The notes under the pieces: model-generated | What the model was told of the DNA's origin: nothing | The model's input: the letters and a program-made list of their open reading frames with translations, nothing else | Database searches by the model: none | Part shown: piece after piece, positions 1-9,276 of the stretch | How the letters are laid out: each line of letters opens with the position of its first letter | Numbering within the stretch: the first letter of the stretch is position 1 | Origin: a virus | Taxonomy: Duplodnaviria > Heunggongvirae > Uroviricota > Caudoviricetes | Direction: 5' to 3' (one strand) | IMG/VR virus record: IMGVR_UViG_2737471845_000024 | Span: 1 to 9,276 of that record | Length of the DNA: 9,276 nt | Position numbers and translations under genes: made by a program

Positions 1-120
1 CTGCGCATTATTCAGCTGGAGGCGGTGCAGGAAGAAATGGCTAACGAATTTCGTGATCTGCTTGTTGAGAAATTCAAAGACAGCAAAGTAGAAACCTTTA
101 TTGGTACTTTCACCGCCTGA
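1..120 (+). CDS. 3' end (last 39 codons + TGA) of a gene that starts left of the window; uncharacterized prophage protein
   Basis: Frame 1 is the only frame open from position 1; it translates [39 protein letters not shown] and stops at TGA 118-120. Frames 2 and 3 hit stops early. By synteny with yfdQ-yfdR of E. coli prophage CPS-53 it could be YfdQ-like, but the fragment is too short to verify. Confidence 0.45.
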
Positions 121-132
121 TTTCATTACTGC

Positions 133-154
133 AAATGCCCCTGCGGGGGCATTT
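133..154 (+). other. GC-rich hairpin just downstream of the partial gene (possible weak terminator or RNA structure)
   Basis: aaatgcccc-tgcg-ggggcattt gives a 9-bp perfect stem with a 4-nt loop. The only T-run is the 3 Ts inside the stem, so it is not a canonical intrinsic terminator. Confidence 0.3.
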
Positions 155-248
155 ATGGAAACGTAATTGACTCAATAATCGCCGGATGGTGAGGGCTTCC
201 TTTTACCAGAATTCAGCGCGGTGCAGCGCATATAACGTGGAGAACAAA

Positions 249-773
249 ATGTCATTTATTAAAACTTTTTCCGGGAAACATTTTTATTATGACAGGATAA
301 ATAAAGACAACATCGATATTAACGATATCGCGGTTTCCCTTTCAAATATCTGTCGCTTTGCCGGCCATCTTTCACACTTCTACAGCGTCGCCCAACATGC
401 GGTGCTTTGCAGCCAGCTGGTACCGCAGGAATTTGCTTTTGAAGCGTTAATGCATGATGCAACAGAAGCGTATTGCCAGGACATCCCGGCTCCACTGAAA
501 CGCCTTCTTCCTGACTATAAACGGATGGAAGAAAAAATAGACGCCGTAATCCGTGAGAAATACGGGTTACCCCCGGTTATGAGTACGCCCGTGAAATATG
601 CCGATCTCATCATGCTGGCAACCGAACGCCGCGATCTCGGGCTTGATGATGGCTCTTTCTGGCCCGTACTGGAAGGTATCCCGGCAACAGAGATGTTCAA
701 AGTTATTCCACTGTCGCCAGGCCATACCTATGGGATGTTTATGGAACGCTTTAAAGAGTTAACTGAGTCGTAA
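249..773 (+). CDS. yfdR: HD-domain phosphohydrolase, YfdR-like (cryptic-prophage 5'-deoxynucleotidase family)
   Basis: ORF-track ORF 186..773. I place the start at ATG 249 (GGAG at 239-242, 6-nt spacer) rather than ATG 186, which has no RBS. The translation MSFIKTFSGKHFYYD... carries HD-domain signatures (...GHLSHFYSVAQH..., ...LMHDATEAY...). I recognise it from memory as very close to E. coli prophage protein YfdR. A hand-counted 100-nt sample (351-450) is ~53% GC. Confidence 0.8.
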   Translation: MSFIKTFSGKHFYYDRINKDNIDINDIAVSLSNICRFAGHLSHFYSVAQHAVLCSQLVPQEFAFEALMHDATEAYCQDIPAPLKRLLPDYKRMEEKIDAVIREKYGLPPVMSTPVKYADLIMLATERRDLGLDDGSFWPVLEGIPATEMFKVIPLSPGHTYGMFMERFKELTES

Positions 774-881
774 AAATCAGCACGTACGAATTCAAACTCT
801 GCCATAAAAGAACATATAAGTAATTTATTAACATATAGATATAGGTTATATTACAAATTGAAAAATTATTGGAGAGCAACA

Positions 882-1748
882 ATGAATCAAAATCCATTCT
901 CATTCTATGACTTTCTTGGATATTTAATACCAGGTGGTTTTTTTATCCTATTAATGTATTTCTGTGGTTTGACATTCGATCTAGATATTGTTATTGACTT
1001 AAGTGAATTGCTCAGAGGTCAAAGTCAAATCTTTGGCATTTTGAACTACGCTTCAATAGTTATTATATCTTATATAGCTGGACATTTTATTTCTATCACG
1101 TCAGCATTTTTTATCGAAAAATACATGAATAAAGAATTAGGATATCCTTCCAAATATCTATTTAAAAAATTGATAGATACCTCAGAAAGCATTTGTAGCC
1201 CATCATGCGATGAGAGAAGCGCTGATAAAAAAACAAAAATAAAGAATCGCATAATCAAATGCGTATTATGCCCAATAATACTATGGGATTTTATAACACA
1301 AAAACTATGTTATTCTCAATCTCTACCATTTCATTTAGCTAATACAACATGGTTAATGATCAAAGAAGGTTATGAGAAAAAGTTCATAACAAATCGCCAA
1401 TTATTACAAGATAAAAACGGACTTGATGATGATCTCTTCAGATTGGCATATCATTATGTTTATGAGTTTTCAAAACAACATCAAACAAAAATTCAAAACT
1501 ATGTTGCATTATATGGTTTTTGCAGAAACATATGTTTAATCTTTATAATTTCATTTTGGGTATCAGTTCCAACCTTTATTTATCGATTATGTACTCATAG
1601 TGATTATCTTTATAGTTTACTTTCAATAATGCTTAGCTTTTTCTTCGTCTATGTTTTCTATGTTGGTTTTGTTAAATTTTATAGAAGATATACTTTAGAA
1701 GTATTAATGGCATTTGCTGTACTTCAAAGTAACGACACTATTCGTTAA
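882..1748 (+). CDS. AT-rich predicted 4-TM inner-membrane protein of unknown function (prophage moron)
   Basis: ATG 882 is preceded by GGAG 871-874 (7-nt spacer); the ORF-track start at 858 is a TTG. A hand-counted sample (901-1000) is ~29% GC, against ~53% in the adjacent yfdR-like gene. Two N-terminal hydrophobic helices (FLGYLIPGGFFILLMYFCGLTF; IFGILNYASIVIISYIAGHFISITSAFFI) and two C-terminal ones (LYGFCRNICLIFIISFWVSVPTFIY; LYSLLSIMLSFFFVYVFYVGFV) flank a ~130-aa basic hydrophilic domain with C-x3-C and C-x2-C pairs. No family recognised. Confidence 0.75.
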   Translation: MNQNPFSFYDFLGYLIPGGFFILLMYFCGLTFDLDIVIDLSELLRGQSQIFGILNYASIVIISYIAGHFISITSAFFIEKYMNKELGYPSKYLFKKLIDTSESICSPSCDERSADKKTKIKNRIIKCVLCPIILWDFITQKLCYSQSLPFHLANTTWLMIKEGYEKKFITNRQLLQDKNGLDDDLFRLAYHYVYEFSKQHQTKIQNYVALYGFCRNICLIFIISFWVSVPTFIYRLCTHSDYLYSLLSIMLSFFFVYVFYVGFVKFYRRYTLEVLMAFAVLQSNDTIR

Positions 1749-1789
1749 TAATGTTGCTCCCGTGTGCAGACGGGATAATGGAGAAACGT

Positions 1790-1996
1790 ATGCTGAACCT
1801 CGATTGTGTTCCTATCTCAACTTATTGCAAAGAAACTGGCGAAACTCCTGAAGCAATAAACAAACGTGTACAGCGCGGTGTTTGGCGTGAAGGTGTTCAG
1901 GTTTTAAAGGTTGAAGGCGTTAAGGAGAGGTGGATTGATCTTAGTGAGGTTGCAAAATGGGCCAGACAAAACTGCTCAAACTACCGCGCGGCGTAA
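1790..1996 (+). CDS. small excisionase-like (Xis/recombination directionality factor-type) DNA-binding protein
   Basis: ORF-track ORF 1751..1996. Preferred start is ATG 1790 (GGAG 1780-1783, 6-nt spacer), giving 68 aa: MLNLDCVPISTYCKETGETPEAINKRVQRGVWREGVQVLKVEGVKERW... It is small and basic, sits directly upstream of the integrase gene and overlaps it by 40 nt, as lambda xis-int does. The call rests on context and general resemblance, not on a proven motif. Confidence 0.55.
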   Translation: MLNLDCVPISTYCKETGETPEAINKRVQRGVWREGVQVLKVEGVKERWIDLSEVAKWARQNCSNYRAA

Positions 1997-3129
1997 CAAT
2001 CAGGAAACACCGCCAGGGAGAAACGATCAATATAACTTTCACCTACAAAGGAGTTAGATGTCGTGAGCCGCTTTCCAATCTGGAAGTAACACCAAAGAAC
2101 ATTAAATACGCCGAGCGTACACTCGGCGAAATCCATAATAAGATCGAAAGGGGAACATTCATTTATGCAGAATATTTTCCCCGTTCTGCTCGTTTGAAAA
2201 TTTTTGGTAATGCTGCTGCAGGCAAAACGGTAAAGATGTACCTGGACGAATATCTTGAAATCTGCGAAACAAGAAAACTTTCACCCTCTACGATTGGTGG
2301 CTATAAAAAATGCCGTAGTGCGTTAGCCTCACTTCACATTTGCCCTGCAAGTGAATTAACACCAGCAACCCTGAAAGCGTGGATTCAAAATCAGAAAACG
2401 ACCTTAAAAACAATTCGCAACCAGTTATCTTTCCTGCGGTCAGCACTTGATGAAGCCGTGACCGATGGGGTACTTCAAATTAACCCCGTATCGTTAGTAA
2501 CAGCTTCGCGCTACCAAAGTGATAAGTCAGAAGCAGAAAGCAGCTACGTAGTTGATCCGCTATCACCAGCAGAAGTTGATGCATTACTAGCAGCAGCCGG
2601 AAACAAACAATGGGAAAATCTGTTCCGGTTCGCTATACATACAGGCCTGCGTAGTTCTGAATTATGTGCCCTTCGATGGCGTGATATCGACTTTGTTGGA
2701 AAAACTGCCCATGTCCAGAGCGCAAGTGTTGTCGGTGTTATCAAAGGGACAAAGACAAAAGCAGGTACTCGGAAAGTTGAACTGACAGAAGAGGCAATGT
2801 TGGCGCTGATAAATCAGAAGCCATTTACATTCATGAAGGATACTACTGTCTTTGAAGATCCAAAGACCAATAAGCCTTGGGCAAGTGCTGATGCAATCAG
2901 GAAAAAAGCATGGGTGCCAACATTGCGAAAAGCAGGTATTCGTTACAGAAATCCATATCAAACTAGGCATACATTCGCCACCCGCCATATCAGCCGGGGA
3001 GCAAACCTGTTTTGGCTTGCAGCTCAAATGGGGCATAAAGGGCCGGAAATGTTATTTCGTCATTATGGTTCATATTTAAAGGAATATGACGGTAATACGA
3101 CCAGCAATATCACAAAAAAAGCCACTTAA
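1957..3129 (+). CDS. int: phage tyrosine recombinase / integrase (lambda-type, 390 aa)
   Basis: ATG 1957 with GAGG at 1946-1949. Tyrosine-recombinase catalytic signatures are visible in the translation: ...HTGLRSSELCALRWRDID... (box I Arg) and ...HTFATRHISRGANLFWLAAQMGHKGPEMLFRHYGSY... (H-x-x-R, conserved His, catalytic Tyr). The N-terminus KHRQGETINITFTYKGVRCRE looks like an arm-binding domain. Confidence 0.92.
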   Translation: MGQTKLLKLPRGVTIRKHRQGETINITFTYKGVRCREPLSNLEVTPKNIKYAERTLGEIHNKIERGTFIYAEYFPRSARLKIFGNAAAGKTVKMYLDEYLEICETRKLSPSTIGGYKKCRSALASLHICPASELTPATLKAWIQNQKTTLKTIRNQLSFLRSALDEAVTDGVLQINPVSLVTASRYQSDKSEAESSYVVDPLSPAEVDALLAAAGNKQWENLFRFAIHTGLRSSELCALRWRDIDFVGKTAHVQSASVVGVIKGTKTKAGTRKVELTEEAMLALINQKPFTFMKDTTVFEDPKTNKPWASADAIRKKAWVPTLRKAGIRYRNPYQTRHTFATRHISRGANLFWLAAQMGHKGPEMLFRHYGSYLKEYDGNTTSNITKKAT

Positions 3130-3140
3130 GTGGCTTTATC
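3114..3140. terminator. bidirectional intrinsic terminator between convergent gene ends
   Basis: A-run 3114-3120, then a perfect 20-nt palindrome aaagccacttaagtggcttt (3118-3137) that contains the int stop codon TAA (3127-3129), then T-rich sequence. On the minus strand the hairpin is followed by TTTTTTT. It lies between the int stop (3129) and the stop of the reverse 127-aa gene (3143). Confidence 0.5.
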
Positions 3141-3142
3141 AA

Positions 3143-3526
3143 TTAGGAGGCTCTCGATTTAAGCATTTCCGTACACTTAGCAAAGAGCCTCTCAGTTGTT
3201 AGAATCGCAACTTCAGACTGTTTAGAAGTGACCGATTGATCAAGTCGATAGTCTGCAACAATCCTCTGAGCTTTAAGTTGACTCAGGATAAAACTAATCC
3301 CTTTTAGATATCTAGCTTCATATACTTCACTTCCTCTTGAAGCATCGCCCTGCAAATAATTGATTAGCCCCTGATGACTGTCTTTCGGCCCGTTTACCAT
3401 ACAAGGCAAGACATGATGGTAAGCGCCATAGTAGGATCTTGCTATAGCATTTCGATAGCCGATTTCGTCATTACGTTGATGACAGTCTTTTGCAAAACCG
3501 AGAAAATCTTGACTATTAACCGGCAT
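3143..3526 (-). CDS. 127-aa helical protein, second gene of a two-gene cargo operon; tentatively HEPN-like fold
   Basis: ORF-track ORF 3143..3532 begins at a TTG. The ATG at 3526-3524 is preceded by GGAGGG (6-nt spacer) and overlaps the upstream gene's stop by 11 nt, indicating translational coupling. Translation: MPVNSQDFLGFAKDCHQRNDEIGYRNAIARSYYGAYHHV...LKAQRIVADYRLD... The AIARSYYGAYHH helix (R-x6-H) and a later R-x3-DY segment recall HEPN-family profiles; this is from memory and unverified. Confidence 0.65.
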   Translation of the reverse strand: MPVNSQDFLGFAKDCHQRNDEIGYRNAIARSYYGAYHHVLPCMVNGPKDSHQGLINYLQGDASRGSEVYEARYLKGISFILSQLKAQRIVADYRLDQSVTSKQSEVAILTTERLFAKCTEMLKSRAS

Positions 3527-4331
3527 GTGCAACCCTCCGGGTAATCAGACCTAATTCGGAGATAGCATTCTGCTCAATATGTGTGTCTTTACATTCAAAC
3601 CAAACAGCAAAATCTTTACCGACTAAACAATCGTGCTCAGCCATTGAAAAAGCAAGCTCAATATTCATATCAGCGATTTGTTCAGCATCAGAAGACTTTG
3701 TCATGAATACAATCGCATTCACTTTCTCTTCCGAAATATTATAAAAACGCATTCCCGAAAGATGAACCTTCTGAGAATCCATGACATTGGCTACATTATT
3801 GAAAATAAGTTCATATTCTAAACCAGAAAGATCGGCACGTTGCTTAAAGGATTCGACCTGGGAAACAACTTCATCAAGATTGTTGTCCATTTTTTCAGGC
3901 TCCTTATCTCCGAACAATTTAGAGTATGACTGGAAATACTTCTCCGCCAACGCCATCTTCCCCATAAAGAGGGAGTTTTCATAAGCTTGAAGATAAATAA
4001 ACGGGGATATGAAGCTTTCAGCAAGCTTAATGCTTGTTTCAAAGCTTTTCTTCAACGTACCGTAATCTGACAAGAAAACAAGAAAATTCTTTGCAACAAC
4101 CTCATTATGGCATACCTGCAAGGAACGCTCAAAGAAGCCTATCGCCTCATTCACTTGGCCATGTGCACCATAGACCAACGCTAAAAGATAGTCCTCAGAG
4201 ACAGGATCTCTAAGTGCTTCAATCTCACGTAACATCCTTCTAAAGCTAAAGTCATCAATCCTCACTCCATCTTTGAGGTATTTAGTTAGCCGCGCGCTAA
4301 TAACTGATGCTTTTTTTGCTGGCTGCAACAT
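3516..4331 (-). CDS. 271-aa helical protein with TPR-like N-terminal segment, first gene of the two-gene cargo operon; function unknown
   Basis: ATG 4331 is the only possible start (AAGG 6-7 nt upstream; in-frame stop upstream at 4446-4448 with no alternative start codon). TPR-like stretch ...DYLLALVYGAHGQVNEAIGFFERSL... No nucleotidyltransferase (GS...DxD), P-loop or nuclease motif seen. A hand-counted sample (3601-3700) is ~38% GC. Confidence 0.7.
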   Translation of the reverse strand: MLQPAKKASVISARLTKYLKDGVRIDDFSFRRMLREIEALRDPVSEDYLLALVYGAHGQVNEAIGFFERSLQVCHNEVVAKNFLVFLSDYGTLKKSFETSIKLAESFISPFIYLQAYENSLFMGKMALAEKYFQSYSKLFGDKEPEKMDNNLDEVVSQVESFKQRADLSGLEYELIFNNVANVMDSQKVHLSGMRFYNISEEKVNAIVFMTKSSDAEQIADMNIELAFSMAEHDCLVGKDFAVWFECKDTHIEQNAISELGLITRRVAHAG

Positions 4332-4456
4332 TAAAAACCTTATCTTACAAATAGTTGGTAATGATGTTGAATTATTTTTTGTTCTTTATGGCTAATAAGA
4401 TTACATGAAGGGACAACTTCTGACCACCTTAGAAAACACTCACTTTAGTAACAAGA

Positions 4457-4474
4457 GTCAATAATATTGTTGAC
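4457..4474. promoter_or_regulatory. 18-bp imperfect dyad (16/18) gtcaataatattgttgac, candidate operator in the intergenic region upstream of the reverse operon
   Basis: Its reverse complement is gtcaacaatattattgac, with a perfectly palindromic aatatt centre. It overlaps -35-like hexamers on both strands (TTGACA on plus, TTGACT on minus), but no convincing -10 partner was found. Confidence 0.25.
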
Positions 4475-4525
4475 AAATCACAAAAAAACAAACTTATCCA
4501 AAACAATCTGGTTTATCACAAAGCC

Positions 4526-4548
4526 TCTGTGCATAAATCTGTGCATAA
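4526..4548. repeat. tandem direct repeat tctgtgcataa x2 (12-bp period) in the phage arm next to the att core
   Basis: tctgtgcataa occurs at 4526-4536 and again at 4538-4548. It lies ~220 bp left of the att core in an A/T-tract-rich region and could be integrase arm-type sites or a regulator site. Confidence 0.3.
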
Positions 4549-4757
4549 CATCATTTTTACACACATTTTTTATAAAAATATTTTTTAGCAAAAAATGCTA
4601 TCTATCTCCGAAACTGCAACCACAAACCATTAATTCCAAATGAAACTATTTTAAAATAAATAGTAAGACAGTAACAGGACAGAAAAAGTTCCGCAAAAGA
4701 GCCGCTTGTAAAATCAACAATATTTGGCTATTTAAATTCAATGAATTACATAACTAT

Positions 4758-4789
4758 GGACACGGGTTCAACTCCCGCCAGCTCCACCA
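4758..4789 (+). repeat. partial copy of the tmRNA (ssrA) 3' terminus: attachment-site core at the junction of two integrative elements
   Basis: ggacacgggttcaactcccgccagctccacca has a T-loop (TTCAACT), the acceptor 3' strand and CCA. It matches my recollection of the E. coli ssrA 3' end GGACGCGGGTTCAACTCCCGCCAGCTCCACCA with one mismatch (A at 4762, weakening the T-stem). The ~330 nt upstream are AT-rich and show no tmRNA features such as the tag-reading frame, so this is not a functional gene copy. Confidence 0.7.
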
Positions 4790-4836
4790 AAATTCTCCAT
4801 CGGTGATTACCAGAGTCATCCGATGAAGTCCTAAGA

Positions 4837-4868
4837 GCCCGCACGGCGCAAGCCCTGCGGGCTTTTTT
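4837..4868 (+). terminator. rho-independent terminator downstream of the ssrA-derived core
   Basis: gcccgca-N12-tgcgggc stem (alternative inner stem agccc/gggct) followed by TTTTTT at 4863-4868. Confidence 0.55.
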
Positions 4869-4920
4869 GTGCCCTCAATTTGTCCCGCGAAGTCCGAAGA
4901 AAACTAATTAAATCCGATCC

Positions 4921-4976
4921 TTTTAGGCACCTTGTTAGGCACCTCATAAAGCTTTATTGTTTTTTGAGGTGCCTAA
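4921..4976. promoter_or_regulatory. repeated TTAGGCACC(TCA) motif, two direct copies plus one inverted, just upstream of the IntA-like integrase gene
   Basis: ttaggcacc at 4923-4931 and 4935-4943 (direct); the 12-mer ttaggcacctca at 4935-4946 recurs as its reverse complement tgaggtgcctaa at 4965-4976, separated by an 18-bp AT-rich spacer. All copies lie within 75 bp of the int start codon (4995). Confidence 0.4.
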
Positions 4977-4994
4977 AACTATGGAAACCCGGCA

Positions 4995-6236
4995 ATGGCA
5001 AGACAAACCAAACCTCTATCCGTTAAAGAAATAGAATCAGCCAAACCCAAGGAGGCGGACTACGTTCTCTATGATGGCGATGGCCTTGAGCTACTCATTA
5101 AATCCAGCGGGAGTAAAATCTGGCAGTTTCGCTACATTCGCCCTGTCACCAAGAAACGAGCAAAGAAGAGCATAGGCTCCTACCCGTCAGTTACCCTTGC
5201 CGATGCCAGAAACTACCGTGCAGAGTCCCGCTCACTACTGGCTAAACAGATCGATCCGCAGGAACATCAGCAAGAACAATTGCGCAGTTCGCTGGAAGCC
5301 AAAACCAACACTTTCCAACTCGTAGCTGAACGTTGGTGGAATGTGAAGAAAGCCAGTGTGACAGAGGACTATGCGGAAGATATCTGGCGCTCTCTTGAAA
5401 GAGACGTCTTTCCTGCGATTGGCGACGTTAGCGTTACAGATATTAAAGCTCATACACTGGTTCAGGCCGTACAACCGGTTCAGGCCAGAGGAGCACTGGA
5501 AACTGTTCGTCGCCTGTGCCAACGTATTAATGAGGTCATGATCTATGCCCAGAACACAGGGCTGATTGATGCTGTTCCCAGCGTTAATATCGGTAAAGCC
5601 TTCGAGAAGCCTCAGAAAAAGAACATGCCCAGCATTCGACCGGATCAGCTACCTCAGTTAATGCAGACGATGCGAACAGCCAGCATTAGCCTTTCCACAC
5701 GCTGCCTGTTCATGTGGCAACTTCTTACTATTACCCGCCCTGCCGAAGCGGCTGAAGCTCTCTGGGAAGAGGTAGACATAGAAGCGCGAGAGTGGAAGAT
5801 TCCTGCAGCACGCATGAAAATGAACCGCGACCATACTGTTCCATTGTCAGATGAAGCAATTGCGATACTAGAGATGATGAAGCCGTTAAGTGGAAATCGA
5901 GAATTTATCTTTCCCAGCCGCATCAAGCCAAACCAGCCGATGAACAGTCAGACCGTAAACGCATCGCTAAAACGCGCAGGTTTTGGTGGGGTGCTCGTTT
6001 CACACGGCCTGCGATCTATCGCCAGTACAGCCCTTAATGAGCAGGGATTTCCACCTGATGTTATTGAGGCTGCACTTGCTCATGTGGATAAGAATGAGGT
6101 TCGTCGTGCGTATAACCGTAGTGATTATCTTGAGCAGCGACGGCCTATGATGCAGTGGTGGGCTGATTTTGTGATGGCTGCAGATCACGGTAGTATGATT
6201 GAAGGAGGGATAAAGGCAATGCGGTTAGTTGGATGA
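4995..6236 (+). CDS. intA: P4-family tyrosine integrase, IntA (CP4-57)-like, 413 aa
   Basis: N-terminus MARQTKPLSVKEIESAKPKEADYVLYDGDGLELLIKSSGSKIWQFRY... is the arm-binding domain typical of P4-type integrases. Catalytic signatures: ...TITRPAEAAEALWEEVD... and ...HGLRSIASTAL...ALAHVDKNEVRRAYNRSDY (H-x-x-R, His, Tyr). Length and position directly downstream of the ssrA att core match E. coli CP4-57 IntA as I recall it. RBS is weak (GGAAA). Confidence 0.93.
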   Translation: MARQTKPLSVKEIESAKPKEADYVLYDGDGLELLIKSSGSKIWQFRYIRPVTKKRAKKSIGSYPSVTLADARNYRAESRSLLAKQIDPQEHQQEQLRSSLEAKTNTFQLVAERWWNVKKASVTEDYAEDIWRSLERDVFPAIGDVSVTDIKAHTLVQAVQPVQARGALETVRRLCQRINEVMIYAQNTGLIDAVPSVNIGKAFEKPQKKNMPSIRPDQLPQLMQTMRTASISLSTRCLFMWQLLTITRPAEAAEALWEEVDIEAREWKIPAARMKMNRDHTVPLSDEAIAILEMMKPLSGNREFIFPSRIKPNQPMNSQTVNASLKRAGFGGVLVSHGLRSIASTALNEQGFPPDVIEAALAHVDKNEVRRAYNRSDYLEQRRPMMQWWADFVMAADHGSMIEGGIKAMRLVG

Positions 6237-6316
6237 CATGTCGTAGCTAAAACCCGTTCTGTTTTTGGGTAGATTAACCTGAAGGTCTGCAATTTTAAAT
6301 GACGCTGAAAGAAGTT

Positions 6317-6345
6317 AAACCCTGCTCTTAAGCAGGGTTTTTATG
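6317..6345. terminator. bidirectional intrinsic terminator between intA-like gene and the large reverse ORF
   Basis: aaaccctgct-ctta-agcagggttt is a perfect 10-bp stem with a 4-nt loop, followed by a T-rich tract on the plus strand (tttttatgatttatt). It lies between the convergent stops at 6236 (+) and 6375 (-). Confidence 0.55.
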
Positions 6346-6374
6346 ATTTATTCTAATTTTGGTTTTGAATCTTT

Positions 6375-9276
6375 CTATTTTAAATCAGCCTTTGCGGCTC
6401 GAATATCTGCGTTTTTTGCTGAGTATTCCCATTCGTCAGCGATTCTAAATAGCATTGCAGAAGTACGGACGCAGTGGGGCATTGAATTTGCCCATTCTCG
6501 GTACTGCTCAGCTAATATCCTTTCTTGGTTTCCACCTTCGTAACGCATACGAGCAAATACCCCCCTTTTATTGTACCTACCAATTTGTATACCTTGCTCT
6601 AACTCATCAGAAGATAATATTTCAATGATGTGCCGAATTGCTTCATGTGGCCAGGAATTATCTACTGAGCTATTAGGGGCATGTGCCAGAATTTTTCCTA
6701 TTACATGATCAGTGATTTCTTGGCGATGATGCAATTTTGCTAAATGGCGTACATTCTCACACCAATCTTCAAGTTTATCTTGATCAATTTCATTGTCTAT
6801 CTGCCCTGGTAGTATTCGTAATTTTTCAAGTAATCTGTATATAGAAGTAGCTCTTTTAACTTCCAACTCCGATGGTTCTGTTTGTTCATCTTCGTCACTA
6901 CGATATACAATACATATTGCTTCTATAAAAACCTCTGGCTTTTTCATCATTAGACGATGCAGGATAAGTGGCTCATCGCTATCCGGAAAACAAGGCAAGT
7001 AGGTCATTTCTTTAAATGCCAAATCTGTTTCAGAAACATCGTTACGTTGTTTGAGTTCATCAAAAACTTTTTTTACATAGTACGATAGCATTGTATCAAA
7101 TTGGATATCCTGGCTATTTATTTCTTTAACGACTATATCTAGAAGATATAAAAGTGTTGTAGATGGAATCTCAGAAAGGCGTTGATTTGCTGATATAATA
7201 GCAGCAAGACCCCGGCCCCTTTCTATATATTTATCCATAAGAACAAATAAATCCGAAGTTTTACCCATCATTGCAATGGGTTGTTTTTGCAACCAATATT
7301 TTTCGTTGATGTTATCTTCAAACCCTTCAATAATGCTCCATATCTCTTGTGAGTCTCTTAACGATGCTAAGATTTTCCCAGCCCTATCAGGGGTAATTTT
7401 AAACTGTTTAAAATACACTTTTATTTTATTAAGCCATTCAGCACCAAAGCATTCAACACCATATTGCATTAACAACCCACAAACTTCATCAATATTTTTT
7501 TTGTTGTTAATAAGCATTACAAACAAATCATTTAATTTTTCTTCATCCAACGAGAGTGCTGATATATGCCTTGCTGCAATAAAAACATTATTAACTTGTT
7601 GAAAAAGGTCTTTCACCCCAGACAAACCTAAAGTAAAGTATATTTCCCTAAGTTTTTCACTTCGCATTTCTGCGACAGAAGAAAAAATTCCGCCAGCATT
7701 TTCAATTGACTCTTCAATATCAGAATCCCAATCATTGAAAATCCATAAACTGGCTCTAACCATGTCAATTGGTTTATAATTATCAAGTATTTTCGCTATT
7801 TTTTCCATAGACTCAAATTTAAATGCCCAGTTCGCATCTGAATATTTTTTATGGCGAGAATACTCATGACGCAAAGCCTCCCATACGATGAACTGATCCT
7901 CTTCAGTTTGTTGAGAAAGGCAAAGTTCAAGATGAGAAAGTGTTTCATCTATTGCATTCTCAGGGAATGAGCTTAAATGAGAGATTAGGATTTCCCATCT
8001 TGTTGGGAGTATACCTGCAAGTTTAATTGCTTCTTGGATAATAAAGATTTGCCCCTCCCAAACAACGCCCCACGTTAGTTTTTCTACATCTTTATCCGAC
8101 TCTCTGAACTTCATTTTTTGGTTTTGATCAGAGGTATCATGGGAGCGAGGAAGGAGATTTTGTAACAAACTCCACCCAATACTAGGAACAATAGTGATAA
8201 TTTTTTTTATAATTGCATTTCTAACTTTTACTGGTGCCCATGTATTAGGAGACCATGCCAGAAAAATGGTTCTTAAACTATTAAGAGGGCGATCTGAGTA
8301 AGTTCCTCCGGGATCTATTACAGCGAGTTTTGCAAGACAGATTGCAGCGCGTAATAGATATGTTTGTTCCCAAGCCAAGGCTTCCAATGCCCATTTTAAT
8401 CCATGATAATGACTTCGAGGAGTTAACAGCCCTTTATCTTCATTGAATATTGGAGCAATCATTTCCCCATTGCCCTTAAGCAATTGCTCAAGGGCATCAA
8501 GGAAAGGGCCAGGGGCAGCTTCTGCCAGCAGCGGAAGTTGATCTCGCAAACTAACAAATAGTCGATGGTCGTTAGCAAGTCCCGGAATACTCTGAACTAT
8601 TTTGTTAACAAAATCTTGGGGTGTCATACCAGTAACCCGGAATTCGGCCTGTTCATGTAATATTGCCATATGTAGCAAAACTGTTGTCATTCCATTACGT
8701 AACCACGAGCTATAAGACGTTTTAATACCATTGTCAGGTACAAACAGATCTTCGGCCTTTGGTGGTTCAGGAATATAGGAAAAAACCTCTCTTACGGCCT
8801 TCTCAAAACGCTCCAGGTGTTCTTCACCCAGCAAATAGCCTAAATGTACAAAAGCATCTACCGACGAACGCAATGACCAAATATCATCTACTCGGTCAAT
8901 TGGAGAATCGCGGCGCTTTGTTAATAGCCTTAATGGATTTTCAACTTGAGAATAGTCTGTATAGCCAGCTAGTTGCTTGAGAATTAACTTATCTTTCTCT
9001 GAACATGTACTCCATGCACCAGCTAATAAAGCAGGGAGCAACTCAGGGCTGTCTTTCCATTCAGGTGATTCAGCCGTGCTACTTGATATCTGGCGAGCCA
9101 AAACAGACAAACTTCGGCCACACTGCCGCGCTATTTGATAACTTTTATCTGAATCAAACCCCATAGATTCAAGAGCCTTACCTAAAGATATACTATCTGG
9201 GCGGATCAGAAGTTCGTGATCAGTTCGTGTTTCATCGGCTCCGGCACTTACTACTGTGTGAAGTGGTTTACTGAAT
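6375..9276 (-). CDS. large uncharacterized protein (>966 aa visible, N-terminus beyond right window edge); predicted mostly alpha-helical; candidate cargo/defence protein
   Basis: The reverse-strand frame is open from the window edge to TAG at 6375-6377. The ORF-track start (Met at 9164) is internal: the 37 codons upstream (9165-9275) are open in the same frame (...FSKPLHTVVSAGADETRTDHELLIRPDSISLGKALES-MGFDSD...). No P-loop, helicase, nuclease or methyltransferase signature was recognised by eye. Base composition is heterogeneous (see findings). Confidence 0.88.
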   Translation of the reverse strand, partial: FSKPLHTVVSAGADETRTDHELLIRPDSISLGKALESMGFDSDKSYQIARQCGRSLSVLARQISSSTAESPEWKDSPELLPALLAGAWSTCSEKDKLILKQLAGYTDYSQVENPLRLLTKRRDSPIDRVDDIWSLRSSVDAFVHLGYLLGEEHLERFEKAVREVFSYIPEPPKAEDLFVPDNGIKTSYSSWLRNGMTTVLLHMAILHEQAEFRVTGMTPQDFVNKIVQSIPGLANDHRLFVSLRDQLPLLAEAAPGPFLDALEQLLKGNGEMIAPIFNEDKGLLTPRSHYHGLKWALEALAWEQTYLLRAAICLAKLAVIDPGGTYSDRPLNSLRTIFLAWSPNTWAPVKVRNAIIKKIITIVPSIGWSLLQNLLPRSHDTSDQNQKMKFRESDKDVEKLTWGVVWEGQIFIIQEAIKLAGILPTRWEILISHLSSFPENAIDETLSHLELCLSQQTEEDQFIVWEALRHEYSRHKKYSDANWAFKFESMEKIAKILDNYKPIDMVRASLWIFNDWDSDIEESIENAGGIFSSVAEMRSEKLREIYFTLGLSGVKDLFQQVNNVFIAARHISALSLDEEKLNDLFVMLINNKKNIDEVCGLLMQYGVECFGAEWLNKIKVYFKQFKITPDRAGKILASLRDSQEIWSIIEGFEDNINEKYWLQKQPIAMMGKTSDLFVLMDKYIERGRGLAAIISANQRLSEIPSTTLLYLLDIVVKEINSQDIQFDTMLSYYVKKVFDELKQRNDVSETDLAFKEMTYLPCFPDSDEPLILHRLMMKKPEVFIEAICIVYRSDEDEQTEPSELEVKRATSIYRLLEKLRILPGQIDNEIDQDKLEDWCENVRHLAKLHHRQEITDHVIGKILAHAPNSSVDNSWPHEAIRHIIEILSSDELEQGIQIGRYNKRGVFARMRYEGGNQERILAEQYREWANSMPHCVRTSAMLFRIADEWEYSAKNADIRAAKADLK

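What the first reader, a model, noticed from the sequence alone, without database searches (positions are those of the whole stretch)
1957..6236. Two unrelated integrases flank one degenerate tmRNA 3'-end att core: stacked occupation of the ssrA site
A lambda-type integrase (390 aa, with xis) lies left of the 32-nt ssrA-derived core and a P4-type IntA-like integrase (413 aa) lies right of it. The core copy has one mismatch to the ssrA 3' end as I remember it and there is no complete tmRNA upstream, so the intact ssrA is presumably left of the whole lambdoid prophage. That places the lambdoid int next to the partial (attR-type) junction rather than next to the intact gene. The arrangement implies sequential integration of two elements at the same site, with cargo from both concentrated on either side of the junction.
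Basis: partly seen in the sequence, partly recalled or inferred. Interest (0 to 1): 0.55.

Follow-up and report, generated by a model that had tools for sequence, protein, structure and literature searches.

The report
Two mobile elements stacked at ssrA
The window is the joint between a lambda-like prophage and a small P4-type island that sit one behind the other at the E. coli tmRNA gene, a correct reading of an ordinary, well-documented arrangement.

Summary
Window 4758-4789 is a 31/32 match to the ssrA 3' end, and there is no whole tmRNA gene. To its left lie xis and a tyrosine integrase that are 92% and 93% identical to those of Citrobacter phage phiNP. To its right lies an integrase 85% identical to K-12 IntA of CP4-57.

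In the nearest complete genome (E. coli YF-1, 99.8% over window 1-8663) the intact ssrA lies 44.7 kb to the left, with a full lambdoid prophage in between. In CUVET24-CCU22 the distance is 44.1 kb. A third, degenerate ssrA copy closes the P4-type island 5.4-16 kb to the right in relatives.

The single "mismatch" lies outside the true core. The 27 nt to its right are identical to ssrA and contain the 25-bp phiNP att site defined by experiment.

phiNP has been shown to integrate into ssrA of K-12 MG1655, where CP4-57 already abuts ssrA. That necessarily builds this same layout.

Tandem islands at tRNA and tmRNA genes are catalogued (Islander: 125 arrays). This integrase pair occurs in 18 of 5,426 complete E. 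coli genomes. The order of arrival cannot be proved from the sequence, but prophage-last is favoured.

Verdict: real, correctly read, already known, low interest.

The parts
1..773 (+). Prophage early-left genes: the 3' end of yfdQ (1-120) and yfdR, a 5'-deoxynucleotidase
   Evidence: RefSeq annotation of the 99.8% identical YF-1 locus. phrog_318 at 2e-108. The same block occurs at 96-97% in many lambdoid phages.
858..1748 (+). Prophage accessory ORF of unknown function (about 288-296 aa)
   Evidence: phrog_12528 at 9e-174, function unknown. No Pfam family. Annotated as hypothetical WP_001075212.1 in relatives.
1751..1996 (+). Excisionase (xis), overlapping the start of int
   Evidence: phrog_2917 excisionase at 8e-45. 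92% identical to phiNP Xis.
1957..3129 (+). phiNP-type tyrosine integrase of the lambdoid prophage
   Evidence: PF12167, PF13102 and PF00589. 93% aa identity to phiNP Int. Catalytic motifs read in the sequence: GLR at about 231, HTFATR at 338-343, GH at 360, RHY at 370.
3143..4331 (-). Two-gene prophage cargo module: 271 aa (4331-3516) then 129 aa (3532-3143), overlapping by 17 nt. It lies in the variable slot between int and the att core.
   Evidence: phrog_17809 and phrog_5176, both of unknown function. Only weak TPR and HEPN_IX hints. Other genes fill this slot in MEI7BO1-21, NADC1036 and phiNP.
4332..4757 (+). P arm of the prophage attachment site (AT-rich, non-coding)
   Evidence: Identical arm in CUVET24 and SCU-101 whatever lies to the right. 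Shares GAGCCGC and AGGACA motifs with the P' arm and with the phiNP and MEI7BO1 arms. That these are arm-type binding sites is inferred.
4758..4789 (+). Displaced 3' fragment of ssrA. It serves as attR of the prophage and attL of the P4-type island. 4763-4789 is identical to ssrA, and 4765-4789 is the 25-bp phiNP core.
   Evidence: The 25-bp core is given in PMC6456863.
4790..4994 (+). Left-end flank of the island, with a stem-loop terminator (about 4836-4869). In genomes without the prophage this terminator follows the intact ssrA.
   Evidence: Same sequence directly after ssrA in K-12 and in many genomes at 99.6% (H50-H56). Terminator scan. Partial IsrM-model match to this hairpin.
4995..6236 (+). 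P4-type (IntA/CP4-57-like) integrase of the island
   Evidence: PF13356, PF22022 and PF00589. NF007246 at 931 bits. 85% aa identity to K-12 IntA.
6375..9258 (-). Island cargo: the C-terminal roughly 960 codons of a gene of about 1,248 aa and unknown function. It runs towards the window end in frame.
   Evidence: phrog_18693 positions 326-1255 of 1258. The full 1,248-aa gene is present in MEI7BO1-21. The window frame is open to the end, but the last 18 nt diverge.

Best explanation
The window spans the internal junction of a tandem array of two integrative elements at the E. coli tmRNA gene.

**Layout.** smpB-ssrA (intact) | lambdoid prophage of about 44 kb with a phiNP-type xis-int-attP module | displaced ssrA 3' fragment (window 4758-4789) | P4-type island with an IntA-like integrase | second, degenerate ssrA fragment | original flank.

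**Mechanism.** Each element carries in its attP a copy of the last 20-30 nt of ssrA. Its tyrosine integrase recombines that copy with the gene. This rebuilds an intact ssrA on the gene side and pushes the previous 3' end to the far side of the element.

**Why the prophage integrase sits next to the fragment.** In the phiNP-type module the order is xis, int, cargo, then the ssrA-like segment, all reading the same way. Integration therefore leaves int beside the displaced fragment and the tail-fibre end beside the intact gene.

**Most likely order.** The P4-type island was resident next to ssrA, and the prophage later integrated into the intact gene between ssrA and the island. The fragment at 4758-4789 is then a hybrid: phage arm up to about 4762, and the former ssrA 3' end plus the island's surrogate terminator to the right.

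**Basis.** The anatomy, the homologies and the layout in related genomes are shown. The order of events, the present ability of either element to excise, and the arm-site assignments are inferred. The confidence given is for the tandem-array reading as a whole; for the prophage-last order alone I put about 0.6.
For: - **Core and integrases.** Identified as stated.
- **Intact ssrA and complete prophage.** Found 44.7 kb to the left in YF-1 and 44.1 kb to the left in CUVET24.
- **phiNP record.** It begins with the core plus a P' arm homologous to the sequence after the intact ssrA in YF-1. It ends with int, cargo, P arm and core.
- **Experimental precedent.** phiNP integrates at the 25-bp ssrA 3' end in K-12 MG1655 and regenerates ssrA (PMC6456863). 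MG1655 already carries CP4-57 against ssrA, so such lysogens must have this layout.
- **Mosaic junctions.** An alignment of nine junctions shows left and right flanks assorting independently.
- **Same island without the prophage.** The same island flank and integrase lie directly against an annotated intact ssrA in many genomes. 258 records match the flank at 99% or more, and the sampled rows H50-H56 and H94-H96 all include ssrA.
- **Same prophage arm with other neighbours.** It lies next to a different P4-type integrase in CUVET24 and next to a phiNP-type P' relic in SCU-101.
- **Third copies.** They close the island in YF-1 and MEI7BO1-21.
- **Known class.** Tandem arrays at tDNAs are a recognised class, and the tmRNA gene is the most enriched target (PMC4383910).
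Against: - The window's own genome was not found whole. The best match stops at 8663 because of an IS3 in YF-1. The upstream ssrA is therefore inferred from relatives.
- Both orders of integration give the same final sequence, so "prophage last" rests on distribution and precedent, not on a diagnostic base.
- K-12 shows that the opposite order also happens: CP4-57 lies left of a phiNP-type relic.
- Homologous recombination between strains could also have assembled or moved the array.
- No evidence here shows that either element is still excisable.
Confidence: 0.93

Rival explanations
1. Same two elements, opposite order. The phiNP-type prophage integrated first, and the P4-type island later integrated into the displaced fragment at the prophage's right end rather than into the intact ssrA.
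For: - The fragment keeps the whole 27-nt 3' end, including the stretch shared with P4-type right ends (TTCA...CCACCA). It could therefore serve as a target.
- The final sequence would be identical.
- CUVET24 has a different P4-type island at the same fragment, which could equally reflect repeated island capture.
Against: - This island with the same integrase lies directly at the intact ssrA in far more genomes than the stacked form. About 250 records carry the island flank at 99% or more, against 18 with the integrase pair.
- The same prophage arm sits against three different right-hand neighbours.
- phiNP is known by experiment to enter ssrA in a strain that already has the island.
Confidence: 0.2
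2. The array was not built by site-specific integration in this lineage. It was imported or reshuffled as a block by homologous recombination between strains, using the conserved smpB-ssrA and ileY/glaH flanks or the repeated ssrA copies.
For: - The locus is highly mosaic. Identical arms are combined with different cargo and different neighbours, and IS3 copies and deletions vary between strains.
Against: - The junctions are exactly at the ssrA core, as site-specific recombination predicts.
- This rival explains spread, not origin, and so complements the main explanation rather than replacing it.
Confidence: 0.15
3. The 32-mer is not an attachment junction. It is the stump of an ssrA gene whose 5' part was deleted or overwritten, so the strain would lack tmRNA at this locus.
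For: Within the window alone there is no tmRNA gene.
Against: - Intact ssrA is present 44 kb upstream in the nearly identical genomes.
- The DNA left of the stump is the conserved phage P arm shared with phiNP-type elements, not ssrA-adjacent chromosome.
Confidence: 0.02

Closest known systems
Citrobacter rodentium phage phiNP (OR565852.1) and its ssrA attachment module
   Same: - Int is 93% and Xis 92% identical.
- The order xis-int-cargo-att is the same.
- The 25-bp core GGTTCAACTCCCGCCAGCTCCACCA is the same.
- The P' arm is homologous.
- Integration into E. coli K-12 ssrA has been shown by experiment.
   Different: - phiNP has baseplate genes and has been characterised as a member of the Myoviridae. 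The prophage here has a lambda-like tail and head set in its relatives.
- The cargo beside the att site differs.
CP4-57 cryptic prophage of E. coli K-12 (intA next to ssrA, psaA fragment at the far end)
   Same: - The integrase is 85% identical.
- The same flank and terminator follow the ssrA 3' end.
- A degenerate ssrA copy marks the right end.
   Different: - Here the island abuts a fragment rather than the intact gene.
- The cargo differs: a gene of about 1,248 aa and a P-loop NTPase in relatives, instead of alpA, yfjI and the rest.
- CP4-57 excision damages ssrA by deleting T357 (PMC10107115). Excision of this island would touch only the fragment, which is an inference.
Tandem arrays of genomic islands at tRNA/tmRNA genes (Islander database; Williams, 'Traffic at the tmRNA gene', 2003)
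   Same: There is an intact gene plus one co-oriented fragment and one integrase per element. This is exactly the Islander criterion for a tandem array (PMC4383910).
   Different: Nothing in kind. The Williams 2003 paper could not be read here, so it is cited only from the Islander reference list and from memory.

Membership tests
Tandem array of tDNA-integrated islands (Islander criteria) | An intact tRNA/tmRNA gene plus cognate 3' fragments in the same orientation | tested here: met
   In YF-1 there is an intact ssrA, a middle copy (L001 24759-24790, matching window 4758-4789) and a third copy (L001 30146-30162), all on the same strand. Only the middle copy lies inside the window.
Tandem array of tDNA-integrated islands (Islander criteria) | [quoted passage not shown] | tested here: met
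   The phiNP-type int (1957-3129) goes with the middle copy. The IntA-type int (4995-6236) goes with the third copy in relatives.
phiNP-type ssrA-integrating int/xis/attP module | Integrase and excisionase closely related to those of phiNP | tested here: met
   93% and 92% aa identity.
phiNP-type ssrA-integrating int/xis/attP module | The 25-bp ssrA 3' core at the element boundary, with a homologous P' arm next to the intact gene | tested here: met
   The core is exact at window 4765-4789. The P' arm homology was seen in YF-1, outside the window.
phiNP-type ssrA-integrating int/xis/attP module | Demonstrated integration and excision at ssrA | not testable with these tools
   Shown by experiment for phiNP only (PMC6456863).
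P4-type (IntA/CP4-57) integrase islands | Integrase with Arm-DNA-bind_3 (DUF4102), the central domain and the catalytic domain, scoring above the NF007246 cutoff | tested here: met
   (931 bits against 434). 85% identical to IntA.
P4-type (IntA/CP4-57) integrase islands | int immediately downstream of the tDNA 3' end, and a degenerate copy at the far end | tested here: met
   int starts 205 nt after the core. Far-end copies were found in YF-1 and MEI7BO1-21.
P4-type (IntA/CP4-57) integrase islands | AlpA-type regulator/excisionase and P4 alpha-type primase genes | not tested
   These would lie outside the window. In MEI7BO1-21 the island has a small HTH gene (L004 31045-31284), which was not examined.
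Lambda Int sensu stricto | A lambda-type N-terminal arm-binding domain | tested here: not met
   The Pfam scan gave PF12167 (Arm-DNA-bind_2) at 9e-24 and no other arm-binding family for this protein. It is a heterobivalent tyrosine integrase of a lambdoid prophage, but not a close lambda Int relative.
tmRNA gene (RF00023) | A full-length match above the gathering score, or an ARAGORN call | tested here: not met
   21.1 bits against 47, and no ARAGORN gene. Only the last 32 nt are present.
IsrM sRNA (RF02763) | A match above the gathering score | tested here: not met
   32.1 bits against 376. Only the first 7 and the last roughly 55 model positions align.

The most novel reading that the evidence does not exclude
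By sitting between ssrA and the IntA-type island, the prophage rewires what excision does to tmRNA.

- In K-12, excision of the island writes a one-base deletion (T357) into ssrA and switches the cell to ArfA-dependent ribosome rescue.
- In the stacked layout, island excision would recombine only the dead fragment, so that switch would be disabled.
- Prophage excision could instead copy whatever the fragment carries into the live gene. In MEI7BO1-21 the fragment already carries the T deletion.

Separately, the 271-aa and 129-aa pair in the variable int-att slot might be an undescribed toxin-antitoxin or defence module.
Probability: 0.2. Interest if true: 0.35.

Novelty: already known. Interest (0 to 1): 0.1.

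Why it matters
It matters little beyond correct annotation.

- It gives the exact boundaries of a roughly 44-kb prophage and a P4-type island at a classic integration hot spot.
- It shows that the "mismatch" marks the edge of the phage arm, not decay of the core.
- It illustrates how the ssrA locus of E. coli is layered by repeated integrations.
- One mildly useful point follows. In this layout the island is uncoupled from the live tmRNA gene. The excision-driven inactivation of tmRNA described for CP4-57 in K-12 should therefore not apply to strains of this type.

Tried and rejected
- **IsrM sRNA (Rfam).** Rejected. Only the ends of the model align, at 32-53 bits against a gathering score of 376. 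The match reflects the shared ssrA-end and terminator module.
- **Other weak Rfam hits.** rnk leader, isrJ, SpF51, SNORA38 and Toga CRE all have E-values of 0.16-0.9 and fall below gathering. Treated as chance or as plain terminator hairpins.
- **Function of the 129-aa and 271-aa cargo.**
  - Pfam, NCBIfam and PADLOC gave nothing above noise. The best were HEPN_IX at E=0.0014 and TPR at E=0.003.
  - The PDB sequence search gave nothing significant.
  - Single-sequence AlphaFold gave pLDDT 53.6, too poor for a fold search.
  - The large homology searches were not spent on this, because the answer does not bear on the finding.
- **Williams 2002 and 2003.** Neither paper is held in the library.
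- **A base that would reveal the order of integration.** None exists. Both orders predict the same junction.
- **Identity of the last 18 nt of the window.** They are not present in any fetched locus.
Full report
**What is in the window.**

ARAGORN finds no tRNA or tmRNA gene. Rfam gives only a sub-threshold partial tmRNA hit at 4742-4789, at 21 bits against a gathering score of 47.

The sequence at 4758-4789 is GGACaCGGGTTCAACTCCCGCCAGCTCCACCA. It differs at one base (4762) from the last 32 nt of ssrA as read in K-12 and in strain YF-1. No shuffle of the window gives such a match.

To the left lie an 81-codon ORF and a 390-aa integrase.
- The ORF belongs to an excisionase family (phrog_2917, 8e-45).
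- The integrase has Arm-DNA-bind_2, a SAM-like domain and the catalytic domain.

To the right lies a 413-aa integrase.
- It has Arm-DNA-bind_3, the central domain and the catalytic domain.
- It matches NCBIfam NF007246 end to end at 931 bits.
- It is 85% identical to K-12 IntA.

The two integrases share no BLASTP-detectable similarity.

**Where the intact gene is.**

The window matches E. coli chromosomes. The best match is strain YF-1, at 99.8% over window 1-8663, where an IS3 interrupts it.

In YF-1 the window lies between a lambdoid prophage and the ypjC-ileY-glaH-gab region. The prophage carries repressor/cro, replication, Q, lysis, terminase, portal, capsid, tail, J, lom and tail-fibre genes. 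The annotated intact ssrA, next to smpB, lies at the far end of that prophage. The two ssrA ends are 44,684 bp apart.

In strain CUVET24-CCU22 the same integrase, cargo and arm are present. There the intact ssrA is about 44,067 bp away across another complete prophage.

The window's own upstream contig could not be examined.

**Which phage module this is.**

The only phage record matching the int region is Citrobacter phage phiNP. Its Int is 93% and its Xis 92% identical to the window's proteins.

- The phiNP record starts with the core followed by a sequence homologous to what follows the intact ssrA in YF-1.
- It ends with xis, int, a cargo gene, an AT-rich arm and ...GGACGCTGGTTCAACTCCCGCCAGCTCCACCA.

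The order xis-int-cargo-core is therefore a property of this module. It explains why the integrase ends up beside the displaced fragment.

Published experiments define the phiNP site as the 25-bp 3' end of ssrA. They show integration into E. coli K-12 MG1655 with regeneration of an intact ssrA (PMC6456863). MG1655 already has CP4-57 intA directly after ssrA. A phiNP lysogen of MG1655 must therefore have the very layout seen here. This last step is an inference from two established facts.

**The "mismatch".**

Aligning nine junctions from five genomes and phiNP gives these results.
- The 25-27 nt ending in CCACCA are invariant among the prophage right ends. The one exception is a deleted T in MEI7BO1-21.
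It is T in MEI7BO1-21 and G in phiNP, which has a different mismatch two bases on.
- GGAC is kept in all.

The phage attP thus carries an imperfect ssrA-like segment of about 32 nt. The mismatch lies in the phage-arm part, left of the identity block where exchange must occur. It is not decay of a bacterial copy.

**The island side.**

The 205 nt between the core and the IntA-like gene, including a stem-loop terminator, are the same sequence that follows the intact ssrA in K-12. The same holds in many other genomes at 99.6% (H50-H56). This is the island's surrogate 3' flank for ssrA.

The island's far end is marked in relatives by a conserved right arm (ACCAATTCAG) and a degenerate ssrA end.
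- In YF-1 this lies 5.4 kb away, after an IS3-associated loss.
- In MEI7BO1-21 it lies 16.2 kb away.
- It is followed by AATAAATCAAGGGG... with its own terminator, probably the original ssrA flank.

Each element thus has its own integrase and its own fragment. That is the Islander definition of a tandem array. The database lists 125 such arrays and notes that the tmRNA gene is the most enriched target (PMC4383910).

**Order of arrival.**

Both orders predict the same final sequence, so no base decides it. Distribution favours the prophage arriving last.
- The island flank at 99% or more occurs in about 258 complete genomes, and the sampled rows lie against an annotated intact ssrA.
- The two integrases occur within 2.3 kb of each other in only 18 of 5,426 genomes.
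- The identical prophage arm sits against this island, against a different P4-type island in CUVET24, and against a relic of another phiNP-type left end in SCU-101.

The opposite order also occurs in nature. In K-12 the sequence after psaA, the right end of CP4-57, is a 91% match to the phiNP-type left arm. There, CP4-57 entered after such a phage.

I put about 0.6 on prophage-last for this window, 0.2 on island-last, and the rest on import of the block by homologous recombination.

**Cargo.**

On the prophage side two overlapping minus-strand genes (271 and 129 aa) fill the slot between int and the arm. They belong to phage families of unknown function. Other genes replace them in MEI7BO1-21, NADC1036 and phiNP, so the slot is variable.

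On the island side the integrase comes first. The cargo gene is a family of about 1,248 aa and unknown function that runs to the window end.

Attempts to assign a function to the 129-aa protein failed.

**Verdict.**

The finding is real and was read correctly from raw sequence. It is also a textbook case: a known phage attachment module, a known island type, a known hot spot and a catalogued kind of array, present as such in annotated RefSeq genomes. Novelty: already known. Interest: low.

The only mildly new thought is functional. With the prophage in between, island excision can no longer damage the live tmRNA gene as CP4-57 excision does in K-12 (PMC10107115). That is an inference, not a result.

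Noticed in passing
L003 (K-12 MG1655) 23470-23637 and 28966-28982: The K-12 ssrA locus reads as three layers. They are CP4-57, then psaA followed by a relic of a phiNP-type prophage left arm (91% to YF-1), then ypjA and pinH', then a P4-type right arm with a third degenerate ssrA end before the probable original flank.
   Followed up: partly
L008 (SCU-101) 11458-11640: The prophage right arm and core are followed directly by a phiNP-type P' arm and terminator, so the junction looks like an intact attP. This suggests a tandem of two phiNP-type elements, the second deleted up to glaH.
   Followed up: partly
L004 19143-19173; L003 23470-23486 and 28966-28982; L001 30146-30162: Several displaced ssrA copies lack the same T (GCCAGC-CCACCA). 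This is the change that CP4-57 excision leaves in ssrA. The window's copy keeps the T. The recurrence is unexplained.
   Followed up: no
window 4780-4868; L005 9302-9379: The Rfam IsrM model matches only its first and last positions at the ssrA-end and terminator module in front of P4-type integrase genes. The Salmonella IsrM locus may be the homologous island left end with an insert of about 250 nt.
   Followed up: partly
window 9259-9276: The last 18 nt (TGAAGTGGTTTACTGAAT) diverge from all related genomes, which continue the 1,248-aa gene. This is probably the end of an inserted element. From memory, TGAAGTGG resembles IS3-family termini.
   Followed up: partly
window 3143-4331 (- strand): This is an overlapping 271-aa and 129-aa gene pair in the variable int-att slot. 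The 129-aa protein is predicted all-helical and has a weak HEPN_IX hint. It may be a toxin-antitoxin or defence module, but that is unresolved.
   Followed up: partly
window 4750-4760 and the YF-1 prophage left arm about 214 nt after ssrA: An 11-nt direct repeat, ATAACTATGGA, abuts the left edge of the ssrA fragment and recurs in the P' arm. The chance expectation is about 0.05.
   Followed up: no
L002 19038-20246 and 17570-19003; L010 32702-34127; L007 643-1835: The ssrA-proximal end of these prophages is a second variable cargo slot. It holds a type II restriction-modification pair in YF-1, RnlAB in CUVET24, and HicAB plus an acetyltransferase in phiNP.
   Followed up: no
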